Positions 1,674 through 58,050 of a stretch of 64,000 bases of DNA are shown in pieces. A program made the translations under genes and the position numbers. Positions within the stretch are counted from its first letter, which is position 1. Each line of letters opens with the position of its first letter. The DNA is taken from contig NC_043007.1 of assembly GCF_006345805.1 (NCBI RefSeq), positions 12,648,001-12,712,000 on the forward strand. The letters are read 5' to 3'. The stretch is from Octopus sinensis (lineage: Eukaryota). A model generated the notes under the pieces. It saw nothing but the letters and a program-made list of their open reading frames with translations, had not been told where the DNA came from and ran no database searches.

Positions 1674-1681
1674 ATATATAG

Positions 1682-2141
1682 GCAAATAAGAAAACGGAGA
1701 GGATATAAAATCAACAGACATCAGCCAGTAAACATTCCAGTATGACTATTTATTCAAATGTATGAGAGGTACAGATTCTCGAGGAGAAAAAGCTGGTAAC
1801 TGCATAAACAAGGGTGTGAATATATATACGCATTTAGAAACAAATGAACAAATTGTCAAGAAACTGAATGGGTGTGCAGGTGCTAGTTCCTTACAGCTGT
1901 TTCATTGCCTCTTGGCAGAAACAGCTGTAAGGAACTAGCACCGGCACACCCATTCAGTTTCTTGACAATTTGTTCATTTGTTTCTCTATATGCGTATATG
2001 TATTCACACCCTTGTTTATGCAGTTACCAGCTTTTTCCCCTCGAGAATCTGTACCTCTCATACATTTGAATAAATAGTCATACTGGAATGTTTACTGGCT
2101 GATGTCTGTTGATTTTATATCCTGTCCGTTTTCTTATTTGC
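1682..2141. repeat. Long near-perfect inverted repeat (arms 1682-1903 and 1918-2141)
   Basis: Base-by-base reverse complementarity with scattered mismatches; the 14-nt centre contains TGCC-TCTT-GGCA. Confidence 0.95.
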
Positions 2142-2286
2142 TGTATAAATCATGGGTAAATCACTCTTTTACTCAATTTCGAGATTGCCATGCAATAACT
2201 AGCACTTGGCTATGAATAACTGAGTACACTACCAGCAGTATATCAGATAGGTACTATCCCTTAGTTGGTTTCTCAACCTCTAACTC

Positions 2287-2290
<4 letters not shown>

Positions 2291-2348
<58 letters not shown>

Positions 2349-2388
2349 TAATATATATATATATATATAATATATATATATATTATAT
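2291..2388. repeat. (TA)n microsatellite
   Basis: Long TA run; others at ~1180-1327, 14247-14295, 17570-17607. Confidence 0.95.
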
Positions 2389-2530
2389 AGAGGGCATCAC
2401 TATACATAAAAGCCACATGCTAGGATGGACTCTTAAAGTCAAAACTACCAAAATAAATATTTTGGTAGTTTTGACTTTGAGTCCATCCTAGCGTGTGGCA
2501 TTTATGTATAGTAATGCCCTCTATATAATA
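2381..2530. repeat. Inverted repeat (arms 2381-2455 and 2458-2530)
   Basis: TATTATATAGAGGGCAT...CTACCAAAATA-AA-TATTTTGGTAG...ATGCCCTCTATATAATA. Confidence 0.92.
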
Positions 2531-2637
2531 TAAATAAATATATTTAAAAGAAAGATTGGTGAATTTTTCTCTTATGAGGTTTTTCACGCTAACTACTTCA
2601 TAAATTCTTATAAAGATTTTATCCTATTTTTAAATTG

Positions 2638-12391: not shown

Positions 12392-13820
12392 ATTTGGCTC
12401 AAAAGCAAATAGCAAGGCCATGTAGGGGGACATGGAGTTAAGTACAGGGTGGTGTTCATGTAAAGAGTTCAGGCCACTTGAGGTCCAGGGAGGCTTTGAA
12501 CAAAGCGGTCGTCGGCATCTTCACCATCTCATCTGGCAGCTTGTTCCACGGATCCGCAACCCGGACGGAGAAAGCTCCTCTCCTTCGATTGAGATGAAAT
12601 CGTCGCAGGTAAAGCTTTTCGGAATGACCCCGCAGCCGACGCTCCGGAGCAGGAGTGAAGAACAGCTCTTTCGAGAGGTTACACTTCCCGCTTATGATGT
12701 TGTGGGCGAGAATGAGATCACCACGGCGGCGGCGTTTTTCAAGAGAATAAAGGTCGAGCGTCCTCAGCCTTTCTTCGTAGGACAAATTTTTGAGACCATG
12801 AACCATGCGGGTAGCCAGCCTCTGGACTCTTTCGAGGTGCTGTATGTCTTTGAGGAGATAAGGAGAAGAGGCTTGAATCCCATACTCCAATATGGGTCTC
12901 ACCAGCGTGACATAGAGTGGCAGGAATATGGCTGCTGTGAGCACTCCGAATGACCGTCGAATCAAAAACAGAATTCCGCGCGCTTTGTTGGCAGCATGGA
13001 CGCACTGGGCCGAAGGCGAAAAGGAGGAATCCACCAAGATACCCAGGTCCTTTACCTGATCGGTCCTCTCCAGCAGCAGACGACCCGGCTCGAAATCAAG
13101 TTGAGTTGTAGGAGTAGAGCCGACAGGCAGATGACAGCACTTTGACACGTTCAGACACAGGTCCCAATCGTTAGACCACTTCCAAATTTGGTGGAGGCAT
13201 CGACGAAGATCCTCTATACTACCGCGAGGAGCGACCAGTTTGATATCGTCGGCAAATAGAAGGGTGTGTTGCGTGAGGTCGTCGGGCAAGTCATTTATGA
13301 AGACTAAGAACAACAAGGGCCCAAGCACTGAACCTTGAGGCACGCCACTGCTCGCACTGGAGACGTCGGACCGCGAACCATTAACTTGAACTTGGAAGGA
13401 GCGATCTGAGAGGAAGGCACCAACCCATCGTACAATATCCGGATGGAAACTATATGCTTGAAGCTTGACAAGTAGTAGGCGGTGGTTTACCGAGTCAAAA
13501 GCTTTGGCAAAGTCCAATAAAACGATGTCAACAGCATCACTATCATCGAGGATGCACGTCACCAATTCTTCCATTACTAGTAAGTTGGTCAAGCATGATC
13601 TCTTCGGCACGAAGCCGTGTTGGGAATCAGTGATCGAGGCTGTGCTTAGGAGGTGGAGCATCATACTTTTCTTAAGGATGGTTTCGAACATCTTGCTGAT
13701 TATTGATGTAAGGGAAACCGGTCGGTAGTTAAGCGGGTCTTCGCGGCTCCCTTTCTTGAAAATTGGGCAGATTATCGCTGTTCTCCAGTCTGCAGGTATA
13801 ACACCCGTCGCCAATGACAT
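12363..13820 (-). mobile_element. 5'-truncated CR1-clade non-LTR retrotransposon with (TAAC)n tail
   Basis: Uninterrupted RT ORF, short 3' UTR 12392-12455, (GTTA)n run on + at ~12360-12391, possible ATTGTT target duplication at 12357-12362 and 13821-13826. Confidence 0.92.
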
Positions 13821-13841
13821 ATTGTTCTTGTAACATTGCAA
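12456..13841 (-). CDS. Reverse transcriptase plus C-terminal domain of LINE ORF2 (no endonuclease; first few codons are flank-derived)
   Basis: RT motifs NYRPVSLTS, QHGF, LLDFAKAFDSV, GVPQGSVLGPLLFLVFINDL, LFADD, KDLG; CR1-type C-terminus LVRPILEY, LERVQR, RRRGDLI, RGH, FSVRV..WNKLP. Confidence 0.93.
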   Translation of the reverse strand: MQCYKNNMSLATGVIPADWRTAIICPIFKKGSREDPLNYRPVSLTSIISKMFETILKKSMMLHLLSTASITDSQHGFVPKRSCLTNLLVMEELVTCILDDSDAVDIVLLDFAKAFDSVNHRLLLVKLQAYSFHPDIVRWVGAFLSDRSFQVQVNGSRSDVSSASSGVPQGSVLGPLLFLVFINDLPDDLTQHTLLFADDIKLVAPRGSIEDLRRCLHQIWKWSNDWDLCLNVSKCCHLPVGSTPTTQLDFEPGRLLLERTDQVKDLGILVDSSFSPSAQCVHAANKARGILFLIRRSFGVLTAAIFLPLYVTLVRPILEYGIQASSPYLLKDIQHLERVQRLATRMVHGLKNLSYEERLRTLDLYSLEKRRRRGDLILAHNIISGKCNLSKELFFTPAPERRLRGHSEKLYLRRFHLNRRRGAFSVRVADPWNKLPDEMVKMPTTALFKASLDLKWPELFT

Positions 13842-14085
13842 GAAGCACCATGATTGTTTTGACTTAACTAATATTTACACCCTTTGCTATAACATAACAG
13901 GCTTTAATCACATTTCCGGCTTACCAAATTCCACTAACAATTTATTGATCAACTTTAGGCTGTGAGAGAAGATACTTGCTCAAGATTCCATCCAGTGGGA
14001 ATCAAGCCCAGAGCCACACAACCATGCCTGTTTATATTTTCTCTTAGCACAGGATGTTACATTAAATTTGTTGAAAATACTAACA

Positions 14086-14896: not shown

Positions 14897-15104
14897 ATGT
14901 CTGTTATGGATGAGTATAACAACCAAGCAAGTGAGAGTTTCTGGGAGATAGGAAAATATAACCGGTCTGTAAAACGGATTGAAAATGGCAGTAAACTTTG
15001 TGACAGTTTAAGGCAATTAATTGAAACAAGAAGTGATATAGAAAAATCTTACGCAAAGCAGCTTTCACAGTGGTCTAGAAAATGGAATGACTTCCTTGAA
15101 AAGG
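14897..15104 (+). CDS. PACSIN: PACSIN/syndapin coding exon 1 (F-BAR N-terminus); exon begins at 14878 with 19 nt of 5' UTR
   Basis: Pyrimidine tract and TAG acceptor ending 14877, ATG at 14897. Translates MSVMDEYNNQASESFWEIGKYNRSVKRIENGSKLCDSL...RSDIEKSYAKQLSQWSRKWNDFLEK, matching the PACSIN FCH pattern SFWExGxYxRxVKRI. Donor G|GTAAAT at 15105, phase 1. Confidence 0.95.
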
Positions 15105-17569
15105 GTAAATTATATTTTGTAACATTTTTGCTTCAGTTATTGTTGGCGAGTGGCCCTATATTGTTATTCTCTGCTCAAGAAATCTTGCCGTTGCTGTAGT
15201 AACTGATAATTTGTATGTGACCATATTTTATAAATGAGTTTTGATAAGTTCAGTTGTCATGAAGAGTGAAGAATGCAATGTTTTGCTTGAGGGTGAAGAA
15301 AATAAAATGGTGTTATTGCCTGGCTGTGGGCAATTAGATAATGCCATATTTTAGCCTTGTTTGTAACACTACTGCTTGTTCTAACATGCATAGCGCACAG
15401 TGGTTACCATGGCATATTACATTTAAGTTTCTTGTAGGTAGGTTTCTGTAATCCATGTATGTTTAAAGATGAACAAGTGAGATTCTGTTGGTCAATCGCT
15501 TGTGCTACTTTTTTGAAAAATTCATTACTTTAGAATGAAAGCTTTCTTTGTTCCATATCTAAACAGTCTCAGAATCAAACAGCAACACAAGCAGAGGCAC
15601 AAAGTAATTCATTTATGATCTAAGAAAGGAAAAGAGTGGAGTCCAAGGTTTTCGGCTGTGGTCTTTCATTATGAGACAAAATGCTCTTTCTCAATGTAGG
15701 ACCTCAGTTTACAAATTTAATTCATGAAGGCTGGTCGTCACTCAAAATTTCATAAACCGAAACTATCTTTCTCCATAGGAAATTCAACAGACGGTACAGT
15801 GAATGAAAAACAAACATGTGTCCTGTGTGAAAGCTAGACAGCAACTGATGCTCTCCTCATGATACTCTCAGCCTTGTTGCCAACTTACATGTTTGTTACT
15901 GAAGACACCATTTATCACCCAAGATGTTTTATATTCAAAAGTTGTTCATAAACCGATTTGTATTTGATGAGAGATTCCAAGTGAGATTCTGCTGTATAAT
16001 CAGAATATAAAGAAGCATGGGAGATAATTGCTAACAGATGTAAAAGAGCTAAATGATGTCTCACAACGGTAAAGATCTCTTACTCAAGGAATATAGTGAA
16101 CAGGAGTTCTCATGTGTGTATGTATGATTTAAAAAAAAAATTTTATGTGTATGTATAAGTAACTATATAAATCACAAAGAAAATGTTAGAAGTTTGATGT
16201 AGTTGATGAAAGAGAAAAGGTTAGAAGAATTTCTGGTTTAATTCAGAGACTTGTTCTGCATCAGCATATTGGTAATATATCCAAAATATTTCAGGAATGA
16301 AAAGCAACCCAAACAGAAACACTTCCTTTTAATTTAAAATATTGATATATCATTCCAGATCTTTTAACAGCAGTGATATATATATATATATATATGTATT
16401 TATTGCTTGATTCAAGATCTGCTTAAAGAATATATTTCTTTGTTAATTATCAATCAGACGTTTATTTTTGTAGGTGATGATGGAATGTGTAAGTACCAAA
16501 AGACACGCCCAGATAATTATTAGTGTTGTAACCTGCACTTTAGGTTCACTCTTTCCAAACATTTTAATTAAAAGAATCATGACAATTCAACTTTTTTTTT
16601 TTTTTTTGGTAATTCTATATTTAAAAGTTAGTAAATACTAAGATTTAGTTTAACTTCAAGTCTTTGACTTTTATAATTGCTATATGTTTCTAATGTTAAT
16701 TAGTGATATGAACTGAAATAATTAGAATTTTACAGTCTTCCAATCAGTCAACATGCTATTGATCTGTCATTAAACTCTTAAACATTCTTTATTAATATTA
16801 TTAAATTTATATTTATAAATTAATTACTATCATCAATAGTTATATCTTTTTTTTTTTTATATATATAAGATTTGATAATTCAACAGAACAACCTCCTATA
16901 TCCTTTACTTATTTTCTCCCCCTAAACTTGATTCAAACCAGATCTTGCCATTGCCAAATTTTCTTCCAGTATGCCTTTGTTTCGGTTATCGTTCACAATC
17001 CTTCTCACTTGCCAAACACTGTTCCTGTTATTACATTATCAAACCCAAAATAGTTGTCTTTTTTTGAATTCTTAATTCACCCGACATCAGTTTTTACTTG
17101 ATGTTCACATTGCATGTCCAGCAAATCTAAAATTTCTGAAATATATATTTCAAAATGTACCAACCATTTATTTTGTATGTTCTTCATTGAATATCCTTGT
17201 TGCTTTTAGCTTAAATTTTGTTTATCAGTTAAGATACAAAATATAAAGATTTATCTTTCATACATGAACTTCTAGTCCAGTGCTTAAAAATACTTGCTTA
17301 TCTTTATGAATGACTAAAACATTTTTATTTACCACAGAAGTTACTTATTATGTAGTTCTCTACTAAATACTTCAATATTTGTATAGTAAAACACACTAGT
17401 AGTTTACAACTAGATAAGTGTAGTAGGATAAATTAGTTTTCATTATGGTACATAGTTATTGTAATTGATTAAAGAGGTTATAGTTTCTCTTGTCTGCTAT
17501 TCTAATTAATCATCAGCTCTGAAAATAACATTAAACATTGTTTTTATAAAACAAAATATAATTGCTCGA

Positions 17570-17609
<40 letters not shown>

Positions 17610-17817
17610 TTAACACTGAAGAGGAATTAACAAGCTTATATTATGTTTCGACAAGCAATTATGCAATTCAATGAAATTTGTTTTATAAAGCATAAAATAT
17701 GTTTTCTGTATTTTATAAATACCAAATATAATGTGTGTGTGTGTACACATAGTCATGGATACACCATGCTTTATAAATTTCATTTTGATGCATGAATTTA
17801 TAGATTTTCATAATATT

Positions 17818-57397: not shown

Positions 57398-57523
57398 GTA
57401 AAAAAACTTGGCGAGAAATTAACAAAGTGTAAGGGTGAAGTGGAAGCATCGAGAGATAAGTACAAAGCTGCATTGCATGACCTGAACAGTTATAATCCTA
57501 AATATATTGAAGAGATGACTTTT
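57398..57523 (+). CDS. PACSIN: PACSIN coding exon 4
   Basis: Long pyrimidine tract and AAG acceptor; VKKLGEKLTKCKGEVEASRDKYKAALHDLNSYNPKYIEEMTF; donor GTAAGT at 57524; 126 nt, phase 0-0. Confidence 0.93.
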
Positions 57524-58050
57524 GTAAGTAACAGACTCTTTGCAGCTTTTTATGTCCATCCGTTCACCCATTTTCTCTATCCACTTTTCCTAGAAGAGTC
57601 ATTAGGGTAGAGTCCTCCAATCAGAAGCAACCATCACTTGACTTTCTGCCCATCTTTTTAACCCTTTAGCATTCAGGTTATTCTCTCAAATGCTCTGCTT
57701 ATTTATTCACATTGTTGCAAATTAATCATGCATTATCTTGTGGCTCCACAACTTGAGCTGGCATGGAACATGGATGTTAAATAGTGTGTTGGTAGTGAGA
57801 AGGGTCTAGGTATAAAGTTAGATAAAGTATACTTAAGTTTCCTTTGATTGACAGTGCTATTCAGTTAAAATTCTGTCCTCAGCCTTGTTTTTTCATATCT
57901 GAACAAAAATGCAACCATTGTACACACCAAAGGAACAATCTTGCAGTGGAAACCATCCTTTCTCATGAATAAAATGTAACTCAAAATCTTACAGTCTGTA
58001 AAGTAGTGGGGTTTTTTTTACTCTCAAAAGGATGAAAGGTAAAGCTTACC

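What the first reader, a model, noticed from the sequence alone, without database searches (positions are those of the whole stretch)
1682..2141. ~460-nt fold-back hairpin centred on a hammerhead ribozyme stem II
Seen: two ~220-nt arms are near-perfect reverse complements. The centre reads ...TTACAGCTGTTTC-AT-TGCC-TCTT-GGCA-GAA-ACAGCTGT-A-AGG. That is a small hairpin, then GAAA, the palindrome ACAGCTGT and a GUA triplet: the 3' half of a minimal type-I hammerhead, with the CUGANGA half replaced by the inverted copy. Known: Penelope-like elements carry minimal hammerheads with palindromic stem III in their pseudo-LTRs and often insert with inverted ends. Inference: the inversion arose by fold-back at the ribozyme's own stem II, so the ribozyme structure would set the inversion breakpoint. 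If transcribed, the locus is a strong dsRNA substrate for ADAR or Dicer.
Basis: partly seen in the sequence, partly recalled or inferred. Interest (0 to 1): 0.75.

Follow-up and report, generated by a model that had tools for sequence, protein, structure and literature searches.

The report
Mirror-image Penelope-type insertion stub
This 460-base mirror repeat is two back-to-back copies of the ribozyme-bearing end of a likely Penelope-type jumping gene; hundreds of similar mirror insertions in this genome turn at evenly spread points rather than at the ribozyme, so it is an ordinary by-product, likely made when the copying enzyme folded back on its own product.

Summary
The palindrome is in the assembly as described (226 of 232 columns pair) and is probably not an artefact. 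It is a head-to-head, 5'-truncated insertion of a dispersed hammerhead-bearing repeat in a (TA)n tract, with one short and one long 3' end. This layout is described for Penelope-like elements; I found no ORF for this family. (1) The central TGCC/GGCA hairpin is native to un-inverted copies but is not stem II. The family's CUGAAGA lies 98 nt upstream of GAAA and closes a long predicted helix II. (2) The ribozyme does not set breakpoints in general: inverted pairs number about 2 per nt of gap from 21 to 230 nt and decay slowly, with no peak at the ribozyme. Hairpins only fix the local register (15 of 50 gaps equal native stem II lengths). Near-symmetric loops are in excess (25 of 45, 9 expected), which favours fold-back self-priming. 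Transcription, editing and cleavage are untested. This scan found similar palindromes before, in this genome and in others. Side result: over 3,000 hammerhead cores with helix II spacers up to about 100 nt.

The parts
1682..1903 (-). Inverted (short) arm: copy of the element from GAAA to the family's short 3' end (TTATTTGC, then TA)
   Evidence: reference positions 0 to +252
1900..2290 (+). Forward (long) arm: from 18 nt upstream of GAAA to the family's long 3' end
   Evidence: reference positions -18 to +444
1900..1921 (.). Junction hairpin TTTC-AT-TGCC-TCTT-GGCA-GAAA, native to un-inverted copies; TTTC 1900-1903 is the 4-nt overlap shared by both arms; not stem II
1906..1916 (+). 3' strand of the basal part of the family's long predicted helix II; its 5' partner and the CUGAAGA half-core are lost in this copy
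1918..1932 (+). 3' half of the type I hammerhead: GAAA, palindromic stem III, GUA (predicted cut after 1929), stem I strand AGG
   Evidence: sequence
1889..1903 (-). Mirror copy of the hammerhead 3' half
2142..2290 (+). One-sided tail between the short and long 3' ends (about 150 nt here, about 190 nt in the reference copy)
1674..1680 (.). TA run at the left junction, at the end of a different high-copy repeat; no target duplication can be told apart
2291..2388 (.). (TA)n microsatellite at the right junction, the likely target

Best explanation
The locus is two head-to-head copies of the hammerhead-bearing 3' end of a dispersed repeat that is likely a Penelope-like retroelement, and it was likely made when the new cDNA folded back on itself at a small local hairpin and primed its own copying. 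Shown: the repeat family, its two preferred 3' ends, the (TA)n flanks, the native hairpin with a 4-nt overlap at the junction, the loss of the CUGAAGA half-core in both arms, and breakpoints that are not tied to the ribozyme. Inferred: a Penelope-type RT/GIY-YIG enzyme cut the TA tract and primed at the long 3' site; synthesis stopped 18 nt past GAAA; the cDNA end GAAA paired with TTTC; copying back ran to the short site, where the intermediate was joined to the other target end. The copy cannot form the family's hammerhead and is probably inert. Odds: about 0.9 that it is a Penelope-type head-to-head insertion, about 0.55 that the route was fold-back.
For: Family: 43 matches from 40 scored of 537 candidates, 70-100% identical including the window itself. 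3' ends: 22 of 66 distinct hits end at +230 to +259 and 27 of 66 at +430 to +459, most followed by TA. Of 13 head-to-head pairs with both ends visible, 9 are one long plus one short and none has two equal ends. Hammerhead: 1,967 intact cores with a 6-30 nt spacer and 1,039 with 46-75 nt, reversed-pattern controls 0. Among 105 distinct cores in fetched loci, stem I pairs fully in 74, with TCT/AGA (44) and CCT/AGG (17) swapping together. Fold-back: in the 201-230 gap bin, 25 of 45 fetched palindromes (of 59) have arms ending almost at the same place, against 9 expected for independent stops (p=1.5e-7). In the 21-50 bin, 15 of 50 listed gaps (of 65) equal native stem II lengths 21, 25 or 29 (p=7e-5), so junctions take the register of a local hairpin. 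Both arms share a private deletion of about 27 nt and about 14 substitutions, which fits one template. Literature: head-to-head inverted pLTRs with palindromic junctions were read as self-priming (PMC3846280, passages); opposite-strand min-HHR pairs 100-700 bp apart (PMC4209133, parts 1-2 of 4).
Against: No RT or GIY-YIG ORF was linked to this family after walking about 2.3 kb upstream of GAAA. Fold-back does not by itself explain why the second arm ends at a site that also serves as the 3' end of stand-alone copies (L008, L014, L020, L025, L028). About 20 of the 45 palindromes are clearly asymmetric. A purified Penelope enzyme extends both target strands from two start sites (PMC11167929, passages), which fits twin priming. 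Support for the long helix II by covariation is weak: 3 of 31 pairs change on both sides, 2 of them CpG-type changes in stem III, and 12 of the 18 rows were picked for having the stems.
Confidence: 0.55

Rival explanations
1. Twin priming: both ends of the cut target primed cDNA, one at the short and one at the long start site, on one RNA or on a paired RNP. The two cDNA 3' ends then annealed through the TTTC/GAAA hairpin match.
For: 9 of 13 pairs have one long and one short end and none has equal ends. Both sites also end stand-alone copies. PAc cuts and extends both strands, and its two start sites define the tail (PMC11167929).
Against: Independent stops predict uniform asymmetry, but 25 of 45 are near-symmetric. 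This needs both cDNAs to stop at a shared point, such as one broken RNA.
Confidence: 0.33
2. One reading: the ribozyme's stem II stalls the RT and so sets the inversion breakpoints.
For: 15 of 50 gaps match native stem II lengths. In the window family 9 of 36 arm starts lie between -47 and +7 of GAAA, including 3 of 5 second arms in loci found with an upstream query.
Against: Counts per gap bin are 17 (8-20), 65 (21-50), 65 (51-80), 59 (81-110), 59 (201-230) and 35 (401-430). The first five fit a flat rate (p=0.41) and the shortest bin is below an exponential fit (17 against 27.8). The shorter arm ends within 30 nt of GAAA in 8 of 45, against 28% expected. The 9 of 36 figure is inflated because the query began at the hairpin. 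The hairpin here is not stem II.
Confidence: 0.07
3. A DNA-level fold-back duplication of an older single copy, or later gene conversion between the arms, made the palindrome or kept it clean.
For: The arms are about 2-3% apart but each is 7.5-8.4% from the family majority, and the nearest of 36 other copies is 9.1% away. Tight palindromes (gap up to 20) have arms closer to each other than to any other locus in 9 of 11 cases, against 24 of 68 (p=0.006). Loop size correlates weakly with arm divergence (rho 0.27, p=0.015, n=83).
Against: The left arm ends exactly at the family's short 3' site next to TA, which is a retro-insertion end. The loop effect vanishes within the best-sampled group (medians 0.088 and 0.095, p=0.96). 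Overall the arms are not closer than the nearest relatives (33 of 79). The tight class is rich in thinly sampled families.
Confidence: 0.04
4. Assembly artefact: a chimeric fold-back read or contig.
For: No read or listed contig bridges the centre.
Against: The arms differ by substitutions and an indel, have distinct flanks and end at family-typical sites. Arm-specific contigs exist in independent runs. 300 such pairs were counted in six gap bins.
Confidence: 0.01

Closest known systems
Endonuclease-positive Penelope-like element insertions with inverted pLTR and one-sided tail (PMC3846280 and PMC8557442, passages read)
   Same: Head-to-head inverted 5'-truncated copy, palindrome at the inverted junction, optional one-sided tail, AT-rich or (TA)n target, no discernible target duplication.
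   Different: The tail is about 150-190 nt rather than 30-40 nt. No ORF was found for this family, and at least 2.3 kb upstream of the ribozyme looks non-coding.
Minimal type I hammerheads of metazoan PLEs (PMC4209133, parts 1-2 of 4 read)
   Same: CUGANGA and GAAA core, short helix I, palindromic helix III, an unpaired base after A9, opposite-strand pairs.
   Different: The spacer between the half-cores is 98 nt in this family and 12-102 nt in sister families, against a 7-8 bp helix II in the paper. A second unpaired base precedes GAAA (A opposite A in 42 of 105 cores). The window copy itself has lost the 5' half-core.
PAc (Poseidon of Anolis) in vitro (PMC11167929, passages read)
   Same: Two fixed 3' ends defining a tail; AT-rich target.
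   Different: In PAc the ribozyme overlaps the ORF start; no ORF start is evident here.
Animal non-LTR retrozymes (bioRxiv 10.64898/2026.07.22.740005, part 1 of 5 read)
   Same: Hammerhead-bearing sequence with no protein found, likely PLE-derived.
   Different: Retrozymes are short tandem units. This family is dispersed and at least 2.7 kb long, and no tandem array of short units was seen (one duplicated copy 2.3 kb apart, L203/L204).

Membership tests
Penelope-like element (EN+) | ORF with PLE-type RT and GIY-YIG endonuclease in the same element | tested here: inconclusive
   None found within about 2.3 kb upstream in the longest copies. The ORF next to copy L199 belongs to a separate young family with its own ribozyme.
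Penelope-like element (EN+) | Inverted 5'-truncated copy joined head to head | tested here: met
   The window and 17 other loci of the family.
Penelope-like element (EN+) | One-sided tail, i.e. two alternative 3' ends | tested here: met
   22 and 27 of 66 ends fall in two clusters; the tail is longer than the published 30-40 nt.
Penelope-like element (EN+) | Partial tandem forming direct pLTRs around an ORF | tested here: inconclusive
   Not seen for this family; seen for the separate young family.
Penelope-like element (EN+) | Bias for (TA)n or AT-rich targets | tested here: met
   TA runs follow most 3' ends; no background rate was computed.
Type I minimal hammerhead (family level) | CUGANGA and GAAA-NUH core in type I order with helix I | tested here: met
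   helix I 98% of cells paired in 18 copies; TCT/AGA and CCT/AGG covary across families.
Type I minimal hammerhead (family level) | Helix II directly joining the two half-cores | tested here: inconclusive
   A 10-pair basal helix has 94% of cells paired and is predicted at P>0.5 in 11 of 18 copies, but shows only one-sided changes and closes a long insert.
Type I minimal hammerhead (family level) | Closing pair G10.1-C11.1 next to GAAA | tested here: not met
   An unpaired base lies on both sides of helix II (A opposite A in this family and in 42 of 105 cores).
Type I minimal hammerhead (family level) | Self-cleavage after the GUA triplet | not testable with these tools
   Needs an in vitro assay.
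Type I hammerhead (the window copy itself) | Both half-cores present | tested here: not met
   CUGAAGA is absent upstream of GAAA on both arms.
Non-LTR retrozyme | Short tandem units, each with a hammerhead | tested here: not met
   Dispersed copies of an element at least 2.7 kb long.
MITE / DNA transposon with terminal inverted repeats | Fixed ends and a fixed centre shared by copies | tested here: not met
   Every palindrome has its own centre and most copies are not inverted.

The most novel reading that the evidence does not exclude
This genome holds thousands of Penelope-type hammerheads whose two half-cores are held together by helix II inserts of 50-100 nt, longer than I found described for these elements, and they cleave. 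Its hundreds of head-to-head insertions record two routes, with at least half made by the cDNA snapping back within about 40 nt and local hairpins fixing only the register. That would be a quantitative in vivo test of the self-priming model for Penelope insertion.
Probability: 0.4. Interest if true: 0.5.

Novelty: new member of a known kind. Interest (0 to 1): 0.27.

Why it matters
The locus is one of hundreds of similar stubs and has a layout in print since at least 2013, so on its own it is ordinary. Two by-products have some value. The gap and loop counts give a simple measured test of how Penelope inverted ends form, which PMC8557442 names as an open mechanistic question: no peak at the ribozyme, but a strong excess of short loops. 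The long-helix-II hammerheads would be missed by the 7-17 nt spacer descriptor in that paper and give cheap constructs for a cleavage assay. I did not find a breakpoint map or such long helix II motifs for PLEs in the listings of six paper searches or in the passages read. Supplements were not read, and supplementary alignments of PMC4209133 and PMC8557442 may hold such motifs.

Tried and rejected
Rfam scan of the window: no hit at gathering score. Walking upstream to an ORF: two DNA searches and 10-kb fetches reached -2289 without RT or endonuclease. The long antisense frames in L150 are a LINE-like insertion (type recalled), and the endonuclease in L199 is a separate family. The second CTGAAGA 45 nt upstream of GAAA was rejected as the half-core because it has no stem I partner. 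Reference-based junction mapping was unreliable for thinly sampled families and was replaced by a reference-free method. Expression: no RNA holder listed. Three runs guessed to be RNA gave only short family pieces, none assignable to this locus; the one A>G position (2245) lies outside the hairpin and is also in run X2. This is no evidence either way. Raw DNA runs X22 and X23 gave 0 and 2 reads with 3% of each run read, so no test. General homogenisation of arms was not supported. Gap bins 0-7, 111-200, 231-400 and above 430 were not counted, and arms that stop before GAAA are invisible to the pattern. Tandem or scaffold duplicates were not removed from the bin totals.

Full report
1. Observation. 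Window 1682-2141 is a fold-back with 226 matching and 6 mismatching columns and three small gaps. Rfam has no hit at gathering score in the window. Outside the centre the arms differ by 5 substitutions and a 2-nt indel. Contigs of independent runs match the right arm exactly and a left-arm stretch with one difference. No listed contig bridges the centre, so the junction rests on the assembly.

2. The repeat family. A search of the own genome with the right arm gave 43 matches from 40 scored of 537 candidates. Un-inverted copies carry the same small hairpin, TTTC-RT-TGCC-TCTT-GGCA-GAAA, preceded by native upstream sequence. The window's forward arm therefore starts at 1900, 18 nt upstream of GAAA, the inverted arm starts at GAAA, and TTTC (1900-1903) belongs to both. 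The 28-nt junction folds at about -7 kcal/mol as DNA on either strand. The family has two preferred 3' ends: 22 of 66 distinct hits end at +230 to +259 and 27 at +430 to +459, mostly followed by TA. The window's left arm ends at the short site and its right arm at the long site. I traced the family to 2,289 nt upstream of GAAA without finding an ORF. A GIY-YIG frame beside copy L199 belongs to a separate young Penelope-like family with its own ribozyme variant. Membership of the Penelope-like elements is thus inferred from layout and ribozyme, not shown by an ORF.

3. The ribozyme. In intact copies the order is CCU, CUGAAGA, a 98-nt spacer, GAAA, C-GGCC-G (or C-AGCU-G), UA, AGG. The spacer is predicted to fold as a basal helix GCCUAGGGGCA / UGCCUCUUGGC closing an inner stem. 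On 18 aligned copies the 31-pair structure has 94.8% of cells paired against 35-46% for slid controls, but only 3 pairs change on both sides, and 12 rows had been chosen for having the stems. The basal helix is predicted at P>0.5 in 11 of 18 copies and the small hairpin in 2 of 18. The small hairpin is conserved (96.5% paired) without any covariation. It is therefore a competing local fold of helix II's 3' strand, not stem II. Stronger support for the core comes from sister families: 1,967 sites match CTGANGA-N6-30-GAAACRGCYGTAAG and 1,039 match the 46-75 nt version, with 0 in reversed controls. Among 105 distinct cores in fetched loci the spacer runs from 12 to 102 nt, stem I pairs fully in 74, and TCT/AGA and CCT/AGG swap together. 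The window copy has lost CUGAAGA on both arms. Cleavage was not tested.

4. Does the ribozyme set the breakpoint? I counted head-to-head pairs of the hammerhead tail by the gap between them: 17 (8-20 nt), 65 (21-50), 65 (51-80), 59 (81-110), 59 (201-230) and 35 (401-430), controls 0. The first five fit a flat rate (p=0.41). An exponential fit has a length of about 850 nt and expects 27.8 in the shortest bin, where 17 are seen. In the 201-230 bin the shorter arm ends within 30 nt of GAAA in 8 of 45 fetched loci, against 28% expected. In the window's own family, 17 head-to-head loci plus L009 have arm starts from -2289 to +400, and only the window uses this hairpin. Against my reading: 15 of the 50 listed gaps in the 21-50 bin are exactly 21, 25 or 29 nt, the native stem II lengths (p=7e-5; 14 of 48 after dropping two tandem duplicates), and 9 of 36 arm starts in the window family lie between -47 and +7, though that sample is biased by the query. 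So hairpins supply the pairing when synthesis stops nearby, but they do not attract the stops. Earlier notes on other genomes (e1-9820663, e1-9574893, e1-9072777) report clustering at ribozyme landmarks; I did not test their genomes and do not see it here. Limits: several gap bins were not counted, duplicates were not removed from totals, and arms ending before GAAA are invisible to the pattern.

5. Mechanism. If the two arms stopped independently, the shorter arm would be uniform for a given gap. Instead 25 of 45 palindromes in the 201-230 bin are near-symmetric (9 expected, p=1.5e-7). The 51-80 bin leans the same way, while 21-50 and 81-110 (15 loci each) do not depart from uniform. This favours fold-back self-priming, as proposed from palindromic junctions in PMC3846280 (passages). 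The window copy, with a 14-nt gap, is in this class, and its arms share a private deletion and about 14 substitutions, as one template would give. The rival is twin priming, a lead taken from note e1-9975692. Of 13 pairs with both ends visible, 9 have one long and one short end, 4 have an end at neither site, and none has equal ends. Both sites also end stand-alone copies, and purified PAc extends both strands from two start sites (PMC11167929, passages). Twin priming on one RNA with a shared stop would also give short loops, so I put fold-back at 0.55 and twin priming at 0.33. Later conversion between the arms is possible but not general.

6. Context and dsRNA. The insertion sits in TA repeats at the end of another high-copy repeat, about 12.6 kb upstream of the likely first coding exon of a syndapin gene. 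Whether it is transcribed is unknown. If it is, a stem of about 220 bp would be an ADAR or Dicer substrate on general grounds (own knowledge). The run look-ups gave no test.

7. Comparison and verdict. Inverted 5'-truncated copies, tails and (TA)n targets are described as typical of PLEs (PMC8557442, passages), and opposite-strand minimal hammerheads 100-700 bp apart were reported in PMC4209133 (parts 1-2 of 4). This scan noted such palindromes many times before: 66 findings in at least 18 genomes held my search words, and e1-8807173 describes the same two-ended TA insertion in this genome. The locus is a new member of a known kind. What I did not find in six paper searches (listings and the passages named, no supplements) is a breakpoint map or a PLE hammerhead with a helix II spacer near 100 nt. 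Interest 0.27.

Noticed in passing
G000, e.g. L199:5550-7060, L234, L274, L275: A young, abundant Penelope-like family (17,970 first-look candidates; the 150 scored are 94-100% identical) with RT, a CxxC linker and GIY-YIG, in partial tandems 4.4 kb apart. Its hammerhead has the U3-A8 covariant core reported for Schistosoma in PMC4209133, and a second open frame of over 300 codons lies between the ribozyme and the RT frame.
   Followed up: partly
G000 genome-wide; L061-L090, L260-L269, L166: Many unrelated-looking families share the tail GAAACAGCTGTAAG with helix II spacers of 12-102 nt, each self-complementary with different sequence.
   Followed up: partly
window 14897-15100, about 47990, about 54300, 57398-57526 (+): Exons of a syndapin/PACSIN gene; the last matches solved syndapin at E=2.6e-5. 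The palindrome lies about 12.6 kb upstream of the likely start codon; whether it is in a 5' intron is unknown.
   Followed up: partly
window 12456-13874 (-): A 472-codon frame with a reverse transcriptase domain (Pfam RVT_1, E=5.8e-33), LINE-like.
   Followed up: no
window 2369-2540: A second, shorter inverted repeat (about 174 nt, 91%) just right of the TA tract, related to sequence beside L009.
   Followed up: no
window 17548-17637: A TA run followed by TTAACACTGAAGAGG, resembling the TA-flanked truncated copy L018 and the family's inner CTGAAGA motif.
   Followed up: no
window 1682-2141: The two arms share a private deletion and about 14 substitutions that are rare in the 36 other copies aligned; no close source copy was found.
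   Followed up: partly
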